A stretch of DNA of 64,000 nucleotides from Albugo candida. Taxonomy: Eukaryota. The translations under genes were made by a program, and so were the position numbers. The notes beneath the pieces are model-generated. The model searched no databases, was not told where the DNA came from, and worked only from the letters and a program-made list of their open reading frames with translations. Positions 52,417 through 60,409 of the stretch are shown here, piece by piece (positions within the stretch are counted from its first letter, which is position 1; every line of letters begins with the position of its first letter). The DNA lies in the NCBI GenBank assembly GCA_040437565.1, contig JBDOQK010000001.1, forward strand, positions 124,001 through 188,000, read 5' to 3'.

Positions 52417-54758
52417 TTAAGGCAATGCAAGCTGATACAGTTTTGTCTGATGCTGAATCTGAGAATGTAGATTGACGAGCGTTTGCGCAGCGCGTTCCGA
52501 CATGGTTTTATGCATGAGCGTTTTTTCAATGGTAATCATTCGAATTCTTGTGTTCTGTGACATGAGTGTACCCAATGCGCTTTGAAAAAATCGGCTTTCC
52601 ACTAACGTCTGATATCAGAATCAGAGTCAGATAGATCAGATTCTGCATTTGAACTTGACACACACAATCAAACCTGAATTTGGAGCCATTCGGACGTGTC
52701 AGCGGAATCGCCGATTTCTCTCTCAAGGAATAGTACCAATTGTTCTGTGAGCTGATAAAAGACTGTTTGCGTGCACAAATCACATTGTGTGCTATTTTCC
52801 ATACATTTCTCTATTGTGTGTTTCACCGAAATAATTAACAGCAAAATGTGAAAGACATAATGTCGACATTCCACCGGCACAACAGGCTCCGAAACGCTCT
52901 TATTCGTCCGAGATCCGGTACAATACGCAATCTCTTGTTCCATCGTTGCATTCTGTAAAATCGTTTTGAATTCGCTCACATAATAACGCACGAAAACAGC
53001 CACATTTTCCTGTTCTAACGCCATCAAAGCATCTTCCAGTTCATTAGTGTGGTTGACAGTTACACACAATTTTAACTTGTTACATTCCAGACTCCACACT
53101 GCTGGCCATTTCTCGCGAATTTGGGCGCAATACGCAATGAAAAGAAGCAGAATACTTGGATCCGTAGCAGCAGTATCCTTCCGCCCATCCGTTCCATTGA
53201 TACAAACCCTCAAACGCTCTAAAAAACACCTCAAAAAATCGATAGTGAGGGATGTGAGTCCCACTTGGAGTGCGTTTATGAGTATATGCTCCAAAGCGCT
53301 TCCACCGCCATTCTCTCGTTCAAATCCCATCAAACGATCCGTATCGTTGCTCGCCTTTACACGTAAAAGCACATTCACAGCCAATGCGACGGATTCCCAC
53401 GCACAATTCCACGTTTCAATGACATCGCCGCAACTGAGGCGCAGCCTCATAAGGTCGTCCTCATCCCTCACACTTGCGCGTACACTCCTCAAAAACCGAT
53501 TTCCTTGTATGAAAAACAATTGACTTTTTGTGAGTGTTTGAGGTATGCCGTCCCTCGCGTGACACTCTGAGGGAAGTGTTTTGAGTGATACTGAAAAGTA
53601 TTTGAGGAAGAGCTCTTCTCGTTGTCGCTCAATGGATTCCGACACGAATGCGACTACAAACGGATGCCGAAATTCGCTGTAAAAGGTCTGTATAGCCGTC
53701 TGTATCCTCTCATTCATCGACGTGGCTTCTGGAAGCTTTGTAAGCGCCTCTAAATGACAAAAACACTCGCCAACAGCTTCGACGATAAAGTCGCTGGTGG
53801 GAAATGCATTCTGTCGGATACTCGTCAATGCTCGATCCACCAGCGTCCATACCCTCTCCTGAACACTCTCCGCCTCCAATGAAGTGATAGAGTCTCCAAC
53901 GCCTTTGAAAACGGTCTCCTTCTCAAAGAGTTGATGGATCAGACCCCAAAGACACGTACGCAATTGCGCGACAATCATGCAGGAAGCCTCGACCGCCACA
54001 CGTCGACATGTAAAAGGCGTACGCGTGAACGTGTTTTCCAAATAGTCCAATTGCTTGGTAAGACATATCAATTTCGGCTTTGATGTGAGTTGCAGAGTTT
54101 CAATCACGCGTAAGACTTTCTCCTGCTGATCGACCGATAGGATCCGCGTCTCAAACTGAAGCAATATCGCATCATTCGCTTGTTTGGCAATCGCATGGAC
54201 AGCTTTAAACACGTTTTGGAACACACTTTGTTTCGATTTCAGTGCATGGAATTGAAGGCGTTTATACGCTTCCACAAATGGATCGTATTTTGCTTGCTGG
54301 AGACTTTGTTTCAACTGAGATGTCAGCTCCAAAATCGGACGAAATCGACTGAGCACGTGGAGTGCATTCTTCAGTTTTCGTTGTTCTTTTGCCCGTTGTA
54401 CCATCAGCGCCAACGACGAGTCTGTGATGTCGGTGAGCGTTTCTGCAGCTTTTACAAAGTGTCCAAAATCATCGGAATGGGAATGGATGGCGTCGAGTAA
54501 GGAACGCACAGCTTCATGACACGCTAAATACTGATCGAAATGGGTGGTGACCAGTGTTTTGAGCTGATTCGTGTTCTCCGACGTTTGACCGCGTAAGCGG
54601 ATAAGCTCTTCCTTCAGCGTTCGCAACGTCGTACACTACAGAATCCCAATGAATTGAAGGAAGCAGAATAAAGGAATTCCTACCGCGTGATGGACAGCCA
54701 AGTACTTTTGTGGATCGAACGATACGGAAGACAGATCGAATTTGTCATTTGGCTCCAT
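52417..54758 (-). CDS. SEC5: Exocyst complex component Sec5/EXOC2
   Basis: Exon 1 MEPNDKFDLSSVSFDPQKYLAVHHA; exon 2 LKEELIRLRGQTSENTNQLKTLVTTHFDQYLAC...; last exon TLVESRFFQSALG...TKLYQLALP*. Confidence 0.78.
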
Positions 54759-54796
54759 GCGTTCCCAACAAACGTCTTTATAAATATCCAATGCGT

Positions 54797-57433
54797 CTAT
54801 TTCCACGAGCGCGTCGCAGACTCCTCGGCTTTCGCTTTGGGTTTACGCGCGCGTGAGACGTTTCTATTGTGCGATGGAAATCGTTTGGGAAGCGTTTGTG
54901 TGTCCATTTCGAGTCTTTTGATTGTGTGCTCCAAACTCTGTCGCAATTTCCATTCGGTATTCCATTTCGCGGAGAGTTCGCATGCACGTCGTTCCAAAGT
55001 TTGTCGTACGTTCTCACTTTTCTTTTGGCATTGTCTCAACACAGTGACATCCTTTTCGAGCTTCTCATTGACTTTTTTGATCGCATTTAATTGCACTTTC
55101 AAACTCATTTGCTTGGGTTTCGTCTTTGGTATTCGTTGCGACGTATCGCGTGCACTTTCGACCTCTTTCGACAACGACTCTGCGAGCTTCCATTTTCGAT
55201 TCACAAGCGCTACTTCCTGCCGTAGGGTCTGTATTTGTATCCAGGCTTGCTTCATAGACGCGTCTTTGTTCTTGGCGATGGCATCTCTTCCAATTTCAAT
55301 GTTTCGAGCTCTTGTGGCCAGCTGCAGGGAACGATACGTCTCGTTGGCTGTGTCGATACCCGGCGCGATATTCACAATCATAAGCGTCTTACAGCTCGCA
55401 TGGAGAACGTCTTGGAGAAGGAATGTGAGCTTCGAGTTTCTGTACGGAACAAATGCGGCTTTCTTGTCGAGCGCTTCCATCACATCAGCCAAAGCCGATA
55501 ACGAGCGATTGATATGAGCTGCTTCTTTCAGCATCACACCTTGGACTCGACTCGTTTTGACACGTTCTGAGCCCGCGAGATCCACGAGGTACAGCTTGCC
55601 GCACGGTCGATCGTCCGAGTTTGTTGAAACGAGTTGGAGAATTACAATCAAATGCGAACGACTGCTTTCCGAATGGACTTTTGTTTCCCCACAAATGCGA
55701 TTCTGATGATATGTGCTCAATGCGAGAAGCGCCTGAGACACAGAGAAGACGGTTTGCATGCGGAGACCCGTGACAACGACTTGTTTGTCTTCATTCTGAC
55801 AGAGTTTGAGGCTTTGGGAACAAGTCTCTGTGCTCAGATCGCGTAATGTATCGTTGTAAATCTCCAACGCGCCCAATTGAACGCGATATGCATCGGATTG
55901 GACGCACGACGCCGTCAGTATAAACTCGAGAATACGATGATTCACGCCGGGATTCTGATCGGTTCCTTGCATGGTGTACGTCTTCCCAGAGCCCGTTTGG
56001 CCGTATGCAAAGATACACGCTTTGTATCCGTCAATGACCGATTGTGCGATTGGTTCGACTTGAGAAAAGACATCGTTTTGCGTTTCTGTCGGTCCAAACA
56101 CTCGATCGAATGTGAAGATTTTCCACGACGCGTCACAAGCGATTTCTTCGGATACATTGCCAGCGAGTACGTTTCTAGCAGCGACATCCGATGTGCTCAC
56201 AATTCGGACAGAGAGATGTTGAGACTTGGTGAGGTCCGGGCGTACACGACAGACAACTTGGATGTTCCCAGTGACAGTTTGTAGCCGCGATAACAGAACT
56301 GCATTTCGTTTACGTTCCTGATGATATTTTGATGTGATGTGATCCGTAGACGCGTCAGAAGCTTTGCAGGTGTCCGGATCACATGTGTGTGACTTCGAGG
56401 TCGAAATTGTGGAGCACGAGGACTCGGGAACTTCGATGGAATCGCTACGTGATCTCGGTTTGTTGGATGATTGGATGTCGATTTTCCACGAGGCGATATG
56501 CTTTTTAAGAATGAGAATCTCTTCGATTTGCATCAATATCTGCTCTCCAAGTGTTTGTATCTATAAAAAAGCCAGAAATGGACGATATGAGCGATCTGTA
56601 CAATGCGTTCATTCTCAAAGCGTATCAAAGCCCTTACATACTCGAAACTCCCGCTCAGATGCGTCTTTTGTCTTTTCGGTAAGCTCATCTGTGAGCTCAA
56701 TGAATTCACTTTCCATCGCTTCCGTGCGCGTTCCCTGCGTGTTATGTTGTCTCACTTCCTCTTCCAAACAGTGACGGAGCTGTCGTTCTTCTTGGAATTC
56801 AGCTGTAAGTATTTTCAGATCGTTTTGTAGCGATTCGATAACACTTTGATACTCTTTGGGCGCTGTGTCTGTGCTTACTTTCTCGTAATTTTGTTGTTGT
56901 AAATCTAATTCGAGTTTCAAATCGTTTATGTGTGTGCGAAATCGCTCCTCTTTGAGCTGTTGTTGTCGCTTGAGCTCTTCATTTTCACTTGTTAAAAAAA
57001 TCCTTTCTTCCATTTCGCGCTCGAATTGATGCTTTAAATCGGCTTCTGTCGCTTTTAAAATACGAATTTCCGTGAGAGATTCATCCAATTGCTGTTCCAA
57101 TTGTATTTTGCCACGCTCCAGTTCCTTCACATTGGACAGTAATAATGCATTCTGCTCCTCGGAAAAACGGAATTCGTGGCTTAATTGAGTGAGACGATCA
57201 CGCAGAAGCTGTATTTCGTGTTCATATGTCTGTACGCGTTTGCTCAAATGCGTGTTTCGGGCTTCGGTGCGAGTAAGTTCCTGCTCGAGTTCTTGTTCGA
57301 GCTCATGACTTGATTCTGTGTACTCTTCAAACGCGGTTTGTACTTGTTTTAACTCTTCGCTTTTTCGCTCTAACGCTAGACGAAGGCTTGAAATACTGAT
57401 TTGATGTTGATCCGATTCAATTGCGTGGTCCAT
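54797..57433 (-). CDS. NudE/NDEL1-like coiled coil fused to a kinesin-14 motor
   Basis: Exon 1 (57433-56642): FEEYTESSHELEQELEQEL...LEQQLDE...ERIFLTSENEE...NDLKLEL. An 81-nt GT-AG intron (56641-56561) joins it in frame to GNIQVVCRVRP, FTFDRVF, GQTGSGKT, SSRSH and LVDLAGSE. Confidence 0.85.
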
Positions 57434-58141
57434 TTGCGTGTATGTATGCTGCAAAAAAGCTTTAGAGCGCTTTCATGCGATGAAAACACGAATGCGAATC
57501 ACAGTAGCTATTTCTAGCCAATCCGGTGACTGCTAAGACTATTTTTAATCAATCGCGTTATTGGAACTGTTTGATTGGCTTATTCCTGCGTGATATATAT
57601 AGAACATTTACAGATTGGCTAAAATGTACGATTCTATTTTTTTAAGACGCATTCGACTCTTATGATCGCATCGAATGGAAAAGTGTGGCTGTGGCTCGCT
57701 TTGCGTGTTGTAGGCNNNNNNNNNNNNNNNNNNNNNNNNNNNNNNNNNNNNNNNNNNNNNNNNNNNNNNNNNNNNNNNNNNNNNNNNNNNNNNNNNNNNN
57801 NNNNNNNNNNNNNNNAATACTGATTTGATGTTGATCCGATTCAATTGCGTGGTCCATTTGCGTGTATGTATGCTGCAAAAAGGAGCTTTAGAGCGCTTTC
57901 ATGCGATGAAAACACGAATGCGAATCACAGTAGCTATTTCTAGCCAATCCGGTGACTGCTAAGACTATTTTTAATCAATCGCGTTATTGGAACTGTTTGA
58001 TTGGCTTATTCCTGCGTGATATATATAGAACATTTACAGATTGGCTAAAATGTACGATTCTATTTTTTTAAGACGCATTCGACTCTTATGATCGCATCGA
58101 ATGGAAAAGTGTGGCTGTGGCTCGCTTTGCGTGTTGTAGGC
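57392..58141. repeat. Near-identical direct duplication 57392-57715 ~ 57816-58141 across an N-gap (2-nt indel)
   Basis: Offset 424/426; gcaaaaaagcttt versus gcaaaaaggagcttt. Confidence 0.85.
57518..57618. promoter_or_regulatory. Cluster of three CCAAT boxes in the divergent promoter between the NudE-kinesin and acid phosphatase genes
   Basis: CCAAT 57518-57522 (AGCCAATC context), ATTGG 57574-57578 and 57614-57618 (both GATTGGCT). Confidence 0.5.
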
Positions 58142-60409
58142 ATAGTGAAGGGCGGAATTTATGACTCATGGAAGCCACATGAATATTGTAATGACCTTGA
58201 CCATATCGAATCCACACGTATCGAGCCTTTGACGCTAGCAGAGCAACATCAAGTCGAATCATTGCTTCAAGTGCAGGTTTGTGAGCCGACATGGCTGTTT
58301 GTGGGATAGTTGGACCACCAGTTCTTTCAGGTATTAGCACGTCATGGCAGTCGTGCTCCATACGGCCGGATATTTTGCTGGGATGAGAAAAAAAATAATC
58401 CAATGAATGCGCAATGGAATTGCTCGACGACCTCGGTCTCGGTGAGTTCATTCGTAATTGCCTATTCATCATGGCTAGTTTTGTAATAACGGGATAACAA
58501 TTTCGGAAAAGTCACAAAACATCGCAGTTAAGTCAAGTGCCGCAGGATATGGAAGATTGTTCCGAAAGCATTACACGAAAGGGCTGAATATCCTGAAAGG
58601 AGATTGCGTAGTCGGTGGATTACTTCCAGAGGGTCGAGAGCAACATGCTTTCAACGGATTGTAAGCCAAATTGTGCTGATTTGTCGTTTTTTCGTCTAAA
58701 GCATTGGTCCTCGCAGGTACCTACGAGAAGCTTATATCGGTCCGAATCCATTCAATCTCCTCAAAACCGCCAATATTTCGGTACGCTAAAGGATTATTTT
58801 TCATTCCAATTCACAAGTTTCTGTAGAACATCGATACTCGTCGCATTTATCTTCGAAGCGATGATCAGGAACGCACACTTGGATCGGGTCAGGTAGGTCC
58901 TTGCCGGGCTTCATACACGGGATTTCGACGCTGATGTGGTTGCAGGTCTTGTTTGATGCTTTCTTCCCACCAGATGCTAGCGAGTCCAAGGCATTAGGCG
59001 ACCTGCTTCAGTGGAATGTCGCGGATTACTCCACCGATCACATAAACGCNNNNNNNNNNNNNNNNNNNNNNNNNNNNNNNNNNNNNNNNNNNNNNNNNNN
59101 NNNNNNNNNNNNNNNNNNNNNNNNNNNNNNNNNNNNNNNNNNNNNNNNNAGCTTATATCGGTCCGAATCCATTCAATCTCCTCAAAACCGCCAATATTTC
59201 GGTACGCTAAAGGATTATTTTTCATTCCAATTCACAAGTTTCTGTAGAACATCGATACTCGTCGCATTTATCTTCGAAGCGATGATCAGGAACGCACACT
59301 TGGATCGGGTCAGGTAGGTCCTTGCCGGGCTTCATACACGGGATTTCGACGCTGATGTGGTTGCAGGTCTTGTTTGATGCTTTCTTCCCACCAGATGCTA
59401 GCGAGTCCAAGGCATTAGGCGACCTGCTTCAGTGGAATGTCGCGGATTACTCCACCGATCACATAAACGCCAATGAGAACATTTGCCCCATGATGAAATA
59501 CGTACGACCACACTATTTATCGTAGCCATAATTAATGTTGAGTGTAGATTGCGGATCTTTCGTCCACATCAAAAACATTTCATGATCATATTACAAGCCG
59601 CCCTGTGTTGGAATTAGAAGAGCGATTTTCCGCTTCTGTTGGTAATTTCAGCTGGAATACCGTGTTGGAATGTCTGAGTGTAGCACGTTGCAATAATCTT
59701 CCACTTCCCAATGGTGTGGACGAAGCATTATTCACCAGAATCTTCCAAGAAGTCGAATTACGACAGGGTCTTTTTTTGACCTTTAATGACTCGTGGTACT
59801 CCAAAGTCGCAATGCAACCTCTTTTTCGTGACATAATTAACAACATCGATGACGCTATCGGCAACGAGGAAAATTACGCAAAGCTGGCCATTTTTATGGG
59901 TACGAGAGTCTATTGGTGTATCAAGTCTCCTGATCTGTATCGTAGGTCACGATGCAACGTTGATGCCGTTCTTGGCTGCTCTGCAACGAGACAACTGGAA
60001 CAAAACATGGACACCGTATGCAGGGGCATTTGTGTTGGAGCTATACAAAACGACGAATGGCCATGCTGTTCGAGCTTTATACAAAGGGAAACCAATCAAG
60101 ATTCCCGACTGCAAACACTGTAAGCTTAGACTCCATTCCATTTAAGGTTTCCATGTCTTTATTGCTGTGAATGCAGCTCTTTGCGATGTGAAAACCTTTC
60201 TTGGATCTTTGGATTATGCTCGGTCTCCACGCACTTGTACCGAGCCAACAACTGGAATACTTGCATCCTCATCTCAGCATCTCTTTTGGTATCGATACTT
60301 TGCACCATTCATTCTGGCGATTATAATCGTTTTCAGTGCGATGCTCGTTTTTCGTTCGCGCAATCAGCCTCGTTCCAGTGAACAGGAGACGCTTCTTTCC
60401 CCTTCATGA
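58088..60409 (+). CDS. Histidine acid phosphatase (lysosomal acid phosphatase-like, type I membrane protein)
   Basis: Signal peptide; RHGSRAP (RHGxRxP) after splicing; GHDATL; C-terminal TM helix and EQETLL dileucine-like tail. Multi-exon and contains an artefactual duplication. Confidence 0.88.
58729..59470. repeat. Direct duplication 58729-59049 = 59150-59470 across an N-gap (probable assembly artefact)
   Basis: Offset 421, bounded by gap 59050-59149. Confidence 0.9.

What the first reader, a model, noticed from the sequence alone, without database searches (positions are those of the whole stretch)
54797..57433. NudE/NDEL1 dynein-regulator domain fused to a kinesin-14 motor
Seen: ORF 56615-57454 follows the NudE/NDEL1 N-terminal coiled coil closely (FEEYTESSHELEQELEQEL; IQLEQQLDE...ADLKHQFEREMEERIFLTSENEE...INDLKLEL). 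A clean phase-0 intron (GTATGT at 56641 to TTTTTTATAG at 56561) places it in frame with a kinesin motor preceded by a kinesin-14-type neck (ERKRNAVLLSRLQTVTGNIQV). Established: the NudE coiled coil binds LIS1 and the dynein intermediate chain and is normally a stand-alone protein; kinesin-14s are minus-end directed. Inference: one polypeptide could couple LIS1/dynein to a second minus-end motor, for example in nuclear positioning or spindle pole focusing in coenocytic hyphae. I do not know a characterised protein with this architecture.
Basis: partly seen in the sequence, partly recalled or inferred. Interest (0 to 1): 0.82.

Follow-up and report, generated by a model that had tools for sequence, protein, structure and literature searches.

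The report
NudE coiled coil fused to kinesin-14
An oomycete gene really does join the LIS1/dynein-binding coiled coil of NudE to a kinesin-14-type motor in one spliced protein, an architecture conserved across oomycetes but apparently never studied.

Summary
On the minus strand, exon 1 (57433-56642, 264 aa) and exon 2 (56560-54800, 587 aa) are joined in frame by removal of an 81-nt GT..AG intron. Contigs of three public runs from two studies carry exactly this junction. The junction also aligns without a break to full-length relatives.

Exon 2 holds a kinesin motor (Pfam E 1.8e-91) whose best solved relatives are all kinesin-14. Exon 1 has no Pfam hit. A profile built only from ten kinesin-fused N-termini finds the NDEL1 coiled coil at E 1.4e-18, against 4.3e-4 for the best unrelated coiled coil.

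The Glu needed for dynein intermediate-chain binding is kept in 19 of 19 fused proteins. Of the Glu/Arg pair needed for LIS1 binding, the Glu is kept in 19 and the Arg in 18 of 19.

The fusion occurs in Phytophthora, Pythium, Aphanomyces, Saprolegnia and unnamed assemblies; Albugo laibachii shows only a model truncated at the intron. Public Albugo models stop at the intron, and seven literature searches found no description.

Binding to LIS1 or dynein and minus-end motility are inferred, not shown.

The parts
57434..57517 (-). 5' untranslated region. The contigs end at 57476-57517. There is a 4-codon upstream ORF and an in-frame stop before the ATG.
56642..57433 (-). Exon 1, residues 1-264: NudE-type coiled coil plus the first part of the stalk
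56879..57397 (-). NudE N-terminal coiled-coil domain (residues 13-185), homologous to the NDEL1 2v71 coiled coil
57275..57310 (-). SSHELEQELEQEL motif (S42-L53). E46 aligns with Ndel1 E48, which is needed for dynein intermediate-chain binding.
   Evidence: review PMC9041303
57062..57097 (-). E113...R124, a Glu/Arg pair 11 residues apart. It aligns with the Ndel1 Glu/Arg pair whose mutation abolishes LIS1 binding.
   Evidence: review PMC9041303
56681..56719 (-). AMESEFIELTDEL stalk motif (residues 239-251). It was found in all 9 oomycete-clade proteins scanned (the window's own included) and in none of the 9 fused proteins of the second clade. Function unknown.
56561..56641 (-). Intron, 81 nt, GTATGT...TTTTTTATAG, phase 0. 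It holds an in-frame stop, so retaining it would give a 272-aa protein.
54797..56560 (-). Exon 2, residues 265-851, plus the TAG stop
56270..56347 (-). Predicted neck helix (exon-2 residues 72-97) running directly into GNIQVVCRVRP
55298..56248 (-). Kinesin motor domain (exon-2 residues 105-421) with intact GQTGSGKT, SSRSH and DLAGSE
54893..55267 (-). C-terminal tail of two long predicted helices (exon-2 residues 432-475 and 485-556), followed by a basic disordered end

Best explanation
Shown: this is one two-exon gene of an Albugo-like oomycete that encodes an 851-aa protein. Its parts, in order:
- a NudE/Ndel1-type N-terminal coiled coil (about residues 13-185);
- a coiled-coil stalk and a disordered linker;
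- a neck helix;
- a kinesin-14-type motor (residues 369-685) with intact ATPase motifs;
- a helical C-terminal tail.

Inferred: the protein is a parallel dimer. Its motor binds microtubules and walks or pulls toward minus ends. In place of the usual second microtubule-binding tail of kinesin-14, its tail presents the NudE surfaces that bind LIS1 and the N-terminus of the dynein intermediate chain. It would therefore concentrate or tether LIS1 and/or dynein on microtubules and at their minus ends (spindle poles, centrosome, nuclear surface), so that two minus-end motors act together, for example in pole focusing or nuclear positioning.

The NUDE_C half of canonical NudE is absent, so regulation through that half is not expected.
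For: Splice. Contigs of 3 of the 4 runs laid (two studies) skip 56561-56641 exactly. The joined 851-aa frame has one terminal stop, and its junction (..SEREFR|IQTLGEQ..) aligns with ..RDME|IQTLQET.. of uninterrupted relatives.

NudE homology:
- The profile of 10 kinesin-fused N-termini hits NDEL1 2v71 at E 1.4e-18 (70 bits; profile 13-179 against chain 17-187), then NDEL1 2v66 at 2.6e-10 and NDE1 7e1t at 4.1e-5. The next hit, GrpE, is at 4.3e-4.
- Exon 1 alone gave 88 hits at E<=1e-3.
- Of the 78 shorter hits, the commonest Pfam family is NUDE_C, in 10 of 78. These include P0024, which matches the query at E 1.4e-9.
- The atlas look-up puts NUDE clusters first, score 0.93.

Binding residues. 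E46 (Ndel1 E48, intermediate chain) and E113 are kept in 19 of 19 fused proteins, and R124 in 18 of 19. All three are among only 13 invariant columns of A2. The roles of these residues come from passages of review PMC9041303.

Motor. Pfam Kinesin scores E 1.8e-91. The 11 best distinct PDB sequences are all kinesin-14 (KIFC3 8.4e-68, KCBP, Ncd), and the first other family is at 4.4e-55. GQTGSGKT, SSRSH and DLAGSE are present. The model shows helix 72-97 abutting strand 100-106.

Conservation of the fusion. Kinesin is present in 7 of 9 long hits, 2 of 2 and 13 of 14. Named sources are Phytophthora, Pythium, Aphanomyces and Saprolegnia.
Against: No binding or motility was tested.
- No LIS1 or dynein sequence of this organism was available, because no genome is held.
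- Exon 1 on its own is only marginal against NDEL1 (E 0.015, and vimentin scored 0.0091), and it has no Pfam hit.
- The motor is central, not C-terminal.
- The fold search does not separate kinesin-14 from other kinesins; Kif15 ranked first and KIFC3 second.
- The type of the runs is not on record. That they are RNA is inferred from their lack of two GT..AG introns.
- One X5 contig retains the intron.
- Conserved Glu/Arg residues could in principle be kept for coiled-coil stability rather than for binding partners.
Confidence: 0.6

Rival explanations
1. The architecture is real, but the NudE-derived coil now serves only as a dimerisation stalk or binds some other cargo. On this view it no longer engages LIS1 or dynein.
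For: The NUDE_C half is missing. Identity to NDEL1 is low, and the single sequence scores only E 0.015. Other kinesin-14 proteins use their N-terminal coiled coils simply as stalks (recalled).
Against: The three residues whose mutation abolishes intermediate-chain or LIS1 binding in Ndel1 are invariant or nearly so in 19 fused proteins that are only 25-45% identical overall (PMC9041303). The similarity runs collinearly through the whole 170-residue domain.
Confidence: 0.22
2. Two products come from one locus. Intron retention gives a stand-alone 272-aa NudE-like protein that ends at the stop at 56615, alongside the fused form, so the free coil would be a functional NudE.
For: A contig of X5 covers 56563-56721 and so keeps the intron. 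Public gene models call the 272-aa ORF here (P0005) and a 285-aa one in Albugo laibachii (P0123). Short stand-alone NudE-like proteins do exist in oomycetes (P0012 from Lagenidium, 245 aa, and P0013, 246 aa).
Against: X5 may be DNA or unspliced RNA; its depth is 5 and its run type is not on record. The truncated models read into the intron, as unspliced ORF calls would. Three runs show the spliced form.
Confidence: 0.12
3. The NudE likeness is chance similarity between glutamate-rich coiled coils, and this is an ordinary kinesin-14 with an ordinary stalk.
For: Exon 1 alone scores vimentin (E 0.0091) above NDEL1 (E 0.015), with high composition bias. It has no Pfam family.
Against: There is a 47-bit gap between NDEL1 and every other coiled coil in the PDB when the fusion-only profile is used. 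NUDE_C is the commonest family among the hits. The atlas look-up agrees independently. The match is collinear and keeps the functional residues.
Confidence: 0.03
4. The fusion is an assembly or annotation artefact that joins two neighbouring genes.
For: An N-run and a duplicated flank lie 280 bases upstream. The contigs also run on into the next gene.
Against: The junction is a spliced GT..AG intron in three runs. The same fusion is found in independent assemblies of four other named genera. The duplication touches only the first 42 coding bases and the upstream region.
Confidence: 0.02

Closest known systems
NudE / Nde1 / Ndel1 (Aspergillus NUDE, mammalian NDE1 and NDEL1)
   Same: The N-terminal coiled coil of about 170 residues is homologous end to end to the crystallised NDEL1 fragment. 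The SxELExELE motif with the intermediate-chain Glu and the LIS1 Glu/Arg pair are both kept.
   Different: There is no NUDE_C region. In its place are a stalk, a kinesin motor and a helical tail. In the domain tree the fused domains sit apart from the NUDE_C-bearing proteins.
Kinesin-14 (KIFC3, Ncd, Kar3, KCBP)
   Same: The motor ranks closest to kinesin-14. The neck helix lies N-terminal to the motor and ends in Gly-Asn. Pfam Microtub_bd plus Kinesin is the pairing seen in this family. JGI names two relatives 'kinesin family protein C2/C3'.
   Different: The tail is a NudE domain rather than a second microtubule-binding region. The motor is central, with 166 residues after it. From recall, plant KCH kinesin-14s also have a central motor and a cargo-type N-terminal domain.
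Kinesin-1-dependent delivery of dynein and LIS1 to plus ends in filamentous fungi (recalled)
   Same: A kinesin is used to position the dynein-regulatory machinery on microtubules.
   Different: In fungi the link is non-covalent and plus-end directed. Here the link would be covalent and on a minus-end-type motor.

Membership tests
NudE/Nde1/Ndel1 | N-terminal coiled coil of about 180 residues homologous to the crystallised NDEL1 N-terminal fragment (PDB 2v71) | tested here: met
   Profile of fused N-termini against 2v71: E 1.4e-18, profile 13-179 against chain 17-187. Single sequence: E 0.015. NUDE_C-bearing P0024 matches exon 1 at E 1.4e-9.
NudE/Nde1/Ndel1 | Glu of the SxELExELE motif that is needed for dynein intermediate-chain binding (Ndel1 E48) | tested here: met
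   Window E46 is kept in 19 of 19 fused proteins. The residue's role comes from PMC9041303.
NudE/Nde1/Ndel1 | Glu/Arg pair 11 residues apart that is needed for LIS1 binding. The review numbers them E116/R127; I recall E119/R130. Only one such pair exists in the aligned segment. | tested here: met
   Window E113 and R124. E is kept in 19 of 19 and R in 18 of 19 (PMC9041303).
NudE/Nde1/Ndel1 | NUDE_C C-terminal conserved region (PF04880) | tested here: not met
   No NUDE_C match at E<=10 in either exon. The protein therefore carries the NudE N-domain but is not a canonical full-length NudE.
NudE/Nde1/Ndel1 | Physical binding to LIS1 and dynein | not testable with these tools
Kinesin-14 | Kinesin motor with intact P-loop, switch I and switch II | tested here: met
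   PF00225 at E 1.8e-91. GQTGSGKT, SSRSH and DLAGSE are present. The motor core has block-mean pLDDT mostly 80-93, with dips to about 62-66.
Kinesin-14 | Motor sequence closest to kinesin-14 members | tested here: met
   The top 11 distinct PDB sequences are KIFC3, KCBP and Ncd (232-200 bits). The first other family, kinesin-2 OSM-3, scores 190 bits. No reference phylogeny was built.
Kinesin-14 | Neck helix N-terminal to the motor, joined to it through Gly-Asn | tested here: met
   ERKRNAVLLSRLQTVTGNIQV. Ncd alignments start at query residues 81-84. The model has helix 72-97 followed by strand 100-106. The significance of Gly-Asn is recalled.
Kinesin-14 | Motor at the C-terminal end | tested here: not met
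   The motor ends at residue 685 of 851 and a helical tail follows. Relatives have still longer tails.
Kinesin-14 | Fold distinguishable from other kinesin families | tested here: inconclusive
   Foldseek ranks Kif15 first (E 8.9e-33) and KIFC3 second (1.4e-32), with many families within one log unit.
Kinesin-14 | Minus-end-directed motility | not testable with these tools
   This needs a gliding assay with polarity-marked microtubules.

The most novel reading that the evidence does not exclude
The kinesin-fused form is an ancient stramenopile invention. In Albugo it would be the only NudE, so that LIS1 and cytoplasmic dynein are regulated from the tail of a kinesin-14. That would make the coupling of the cell's two minus-end motors obligatory and covalent, organising spindle poles and nuclear spacing in coenocytic hyphae.

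The data leave this open. A second clade of fused proteins groups with a brown-alga fragment. No canonical NUDE_C protein of an oomycete turned up, and whether Albugo has the short stand-alone paralogue could not be checked.
Probability: 0.25. Interest if true: 0.85.

Novelty: new variant of a known kind. Interest (0 to 1): 0.66.

Why it matters
NudE and LIS1 are the core regulators of cytoplasmic dynein, and kinesin-14 is the other minus-end motor of the spindle. How the two motor systems cooperate is usually studied as an indirect relationship. A natural protein that ties the LIS1/dynein-binding module to a kinesin-14 motor, kept across oomycetes at 25-45% identity, offers a ready-made experiment on that cooperation. 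It also gives a lineage-specific cytoskeletal protein in a group of important plant and animal pathogens.

There is a practical point too. Public gene models of this gene are wrong in at least three species:
- here, the model is truncated at the intron;
- in Albugo laibachii, the model is also truncated at the intron;
- in Phytophthora ramorum, the motor core is missing from the model.

Pfam-based surveys of kinesin architecture cannot see the NudE domain, which may explain why the fusion has gone unnoticed.

Tried and rejected
- **Whole genome.** None is held for this window. LIS1, dynein and a stand-alone NudE could therefore not be sought in the same organism.
- **Pfam on exon 1.** Nothing scored above the cut-offs. 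This is uninformative, because Pfam models only NUDE_C.
- **Run search.** No RNA holder is listed; run types are guesses.
- **Profile search at 'near' lengths.** It found only the window's own 272-aa model and the Albugo laibachii model (2 hits among 8000 candidates scored). It says nothing on stand-alone NudE genes.
- **Atlas look-up of P0050.** I used it to learn the taxon of the second fused clade. The nearest cluster is a kinesin cluster in which Oomycota is the commonest phylum, which is not decisive.
- **Fold search of the exon-2 model.** It confirms a kinesin motor but does not discriminate between kinesin families.
- **Earlier findings of this scan.** Nothing by place, sequence or words.
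- **Literature.** Seven full-text searches found no paper describing a NudE-kinesin fusion. 'NudE' mostly matched 'nude mice'.
- **Kinesin architecture survey PMC2867816.** It has no occurrence of NudE or LIS1 in its main text. Its list of 105 architectures is in supplements that I could not see.

Full report
**1. What is in the sequence**

- On the minus strand, a stop-to-stop frame 56615-57472 holds its first in-frame ATG at 57433. A second open frame runs 54797-56560.
- GTATGT starts at 56641 and TTTTTTATAG ends at 56561.
- Removing 56561-56641 (81 nt) joins ...SEREFR to IQTLGEQ... at a codon boundary.
- Exon 1 gives 264 residues (P0001) and exon 2 gives 587 (P0002).
- The joined frame is 851 codons with a single, terminal stop.

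**2. Is the splice real?**

No run is on record as RNA. I therefore laid the contigs of four runs on 54600-57700.

- Contigs of X1 and X4 (study P1) and X7 (study P4) skip exactly 56561-56641, with CT..AC ends on the + strand. The same contigs skip 54636-54683 in the next gene.
- Lacking two canonical introns in adjacent genes is the signature of spliced RNA. The formal alternative, an intron-less DNA allele, would join the exons in frame just the same.
- A low-depth X5 contig (56563-56721) keeps the intron. It may be DNA, pre-mRNA or a retained-intron form.
- The contigs stop at 57476-57517, which fits a short 5' UTR.
- The junction is also supported by relatives. Uninterrupted Phytophthora, Pythium, Aphanomyces and Saprolegnia proteins read ...IRKRDME|IQTLQET... 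across it.
- The public 272-aa model of this locus (P0005) and the 285-aa Albugo laibachii model (P0123, 76% identical) both end at the junction and read into the intron.
- The 76% identity to A. laibachii suggests that the window comes from an Albugo-like oomycete.

**3. The motor half**

- Pfam gives Kinesin at E 1.8e-91 (exon-2 residues 105-421) and Microtub_bd at E 1.4e-31.
- Against all PDB sequences, the 11 best distinct hits are kinesin-14: KIFC3 at 8.4e-68, KCBP at 1.2e-60 and several Ncd chains near 4e-59. The first member of another family, OSM-3, is at 4.4e-55.
- The Ncd alignments begin at residues 81-84, inside the neck.
- The P-loop, switch I and switch II motifs are intact.
- An AlphaFold2 model from a 16-sequence alignment has mean pLDDT 72.5, with the motor core mostly at 80-93. 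It shows a helix at 72-97 running into the first motor strand at GNIQV. After the motor come two long helices, 432-475 and 485-556, and the model has a disordered linker at 33-71.
- Foldseek confirms a kinesin motor but does not separate families. Kif15 ranks first and KIFC3 second.
- The motor is central, at residues 369-685 of 851, not C-terminal.

**4. The N-terminal half**

- Pfam finds nothing in exon 1. Pfam models only the C-terminal half of NudE.
- Alone against the PDB, exon 1 is marginal: vimentin scores 0.0091 and NDEL1 2v71 scores 0.015. The NDEL1 match is collinear, though (26-184 against 24-185).
- An exhaustive phmmer search of 1.84 billion representatives gave 88 hits at E<=1e-3.
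- Of the 9 longest hits, 7 carry Kinesin plus Microtub_bd behind the matching N-terminus.
- Of the other 78, NUDE_C is the commonest Pfam family, in 10 members. I identified three of those ten: P0024, P0042 and P0062, which match the query at E 1.4e-9, 1.5e-7 and 1.6e-5.
- To avoid circularity, I aligned only N-termini of kinesin-fused proteins (ten sequences, A2) and searched the PDB with that profile. NDEL1 2v71 scored E 1.4e-18 (70 bits, end to end), NDEL1 2v66 scored 2.6e-10 and NDE1 7e1t scored 4.1e-5. The best unrelated coiled coil, GrpE, scored 4.3e-4 (23 bits).
- A protein-language-model look-up independently ranks NUDE clusters first (0.93).
- I conclude that this is a NudE-type coiled coil and not a generic one.

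**5. Functional residues**

- I read passages and section 13 of the review PMC9041303.
- According to it, Ndel1 E48A blocks binding of the dynein intermediate chain.
- It also says that a Glu and an Arg 11 residues apart within residues 85-169 are each required for LIS1 binding.
- The review numbers these as E116 and R127, whereas I recall E119 and R130 from the primary papers. Only one Glu/Arg pair with that spacing exists in the aligned segment.
- In the window protein these positions are E46, E113 and R124.
- Across 19 fused proteins, E46 and E113 are kept in 19 and R124 in 18. The exception, P0117, has a gap there.
- All three are among only 13 invariant columns of A2.

**6. Distribution**

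- I found 18 fused proteins besides the window's own. In the 'longer' profile search, 13 of 14 hits carry PF00225.
- Named sources are Phytophthora kernoviae, P. boehmeriae, P. pseudosyringae, P. oleae, Pythium oligandrum, Aphanomyces euteiches, A. cochlioides and Saprolegnia parasitica.
- The P. ramorum entry named 'Nuclear distribution protein nudE-like protein 1' (P0009, 851 aa) is the orthologue of the P. kernoviae fusion. Its model lacks the motor core.
- I built a quick tree of the NudE domain with 88 rows. Before building it, I dropped:
  - rows whose profile match was shorter than 130 positions;
  - P0002 and P0005;
  - the cluster members P0093-P0109 and P0118-P0122.
- The window pairs with A. 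laibachii inside an oomycete clade of 22 rows (SH-aLRT 98).
- The three NUDE_C proteins sit in a different group.
- A second group holds 8 fused proteins from unnamed assemblies and a brown-alga fragment, P0014. The fusion may therefore predate the oomycetes. This is a hint only, because the tree is unrooted and many forks are open.
- Two short proteins lie inside the oomycete clade but outside the Pythium/Phytophthora/Saprolegniales fused group: P0012 (Lagenidium, 245 aa) and P0013 (246 aa). They look like a stand-alone paralogue.
- Whether this organism has that paralogue could not be checked.

**7. Mechanism**

- Shown: the architecture, the splice, the homology of both halves, the intact ATPase motifs and the conservation of the partner-binding residues.
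- Inferred: a parallel dimer whose kinesin-14 motor holds or moves it toward microtubule minus ends. Its NudE tail would recruit LIS1 and/or the dynein intermediate chain, so the two minus-end motors are concentrated and coordinated at poles or on the nuclear surface.
- Because NUDE_C is absent, functions of that half are not expected. From recall, these include heavy-chain contact, phospho-regulation and auto-inhibition.
- Rivals are a purely structural stalk (0.22), a dual product by intron retention (0.12), chance coiled-coil likeness (0.03) and an artefact (0.02).

**8. Novelty**

- The proteins are in public databases under automatic names, and one of those names even says nudE-like.
- Seven full-text searches found no description of the fusion.
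- The main text of the large kinesin architecture survey does not mention NudE or LIS1. Its supplementary architecture list could not be seen.
- I rate this a new variant of known kinds: an uncharacterised, conserved combination of two well-known modules.
- The interest is real but depends on the untested binding.

Noticed in passing
window 57392-58141 (N-run 57714-57815): The flanks of the assembly gap are the same sequence twice. 57392-57457 equals 57816-57881 (100%), and 57453-57715 matches 57879-58141 (99%), with spacings of 424 and 426. All four runs laid carry two extra bases behind 57457, which matches the second copy. This looks like an unmerged contig overlap. It duplicates the first 42 coding bases and the 5' region of the gene, and the first copy has a 2-base error in the 5' UTR.
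   Followed up: partly
window 52668-54758, minus strand: The next gene downstream is an exocyst Sec5 homologue (PF15469, E 3.8e-24). Its ATG at 54758 lies only 38 bases after the kinesin's stop codon. Its first intron, 54636-54683 (48 nt), is removed in the same contigs, which run across both genes.
   Followed up: partly
window 56495 and 56500: Contigs of X1, X4 and X7 read C and T in place of G and G on the + strand. By my reading of the codons, this changes His-Ile to Asn-Met at exon-2 residues 21-22. It is probably a strain difference.
   Followed up: no
window 56681-56719 (residues 239-251): The stalk motif AMExE..E[LM].DEL lies just before the exon junction. It was found in all 9 oomycete-clade proteins scanned (the window's own included) and in none of the 9 fused proteins of the second clade, nor in P0012, P0013 or the NudE P0024. 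Function unknown.
   Followed up: partly
P0009 (Phytophthora ramorum), P0123 (Albugo laibachii), P0005 (this locus): The public gene models of this gene are faulty. Two stop at the intron. The third lacks the segment matching residues 608-925 of the P. kernoviae orthologue, which is the motor core.
   Followed up: yes
window 57637-57700: A contig of X7 with a much higher word depth (1027, against 143 for the kinesin contig) covers the region just upstream of the gene, next to the gap. It was not identified. The 141-aa ORF at 58086-58511 has no Pfam hit.
   Followed up: no
P0012 (Lagenidium giganteum, 245 aa) and P0013 (246 aa): These are short stand-alone NudE-coil proteins with similar basic C-terminal ends. 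They may be the free NudE of oomycetes.
   Followed up: partly
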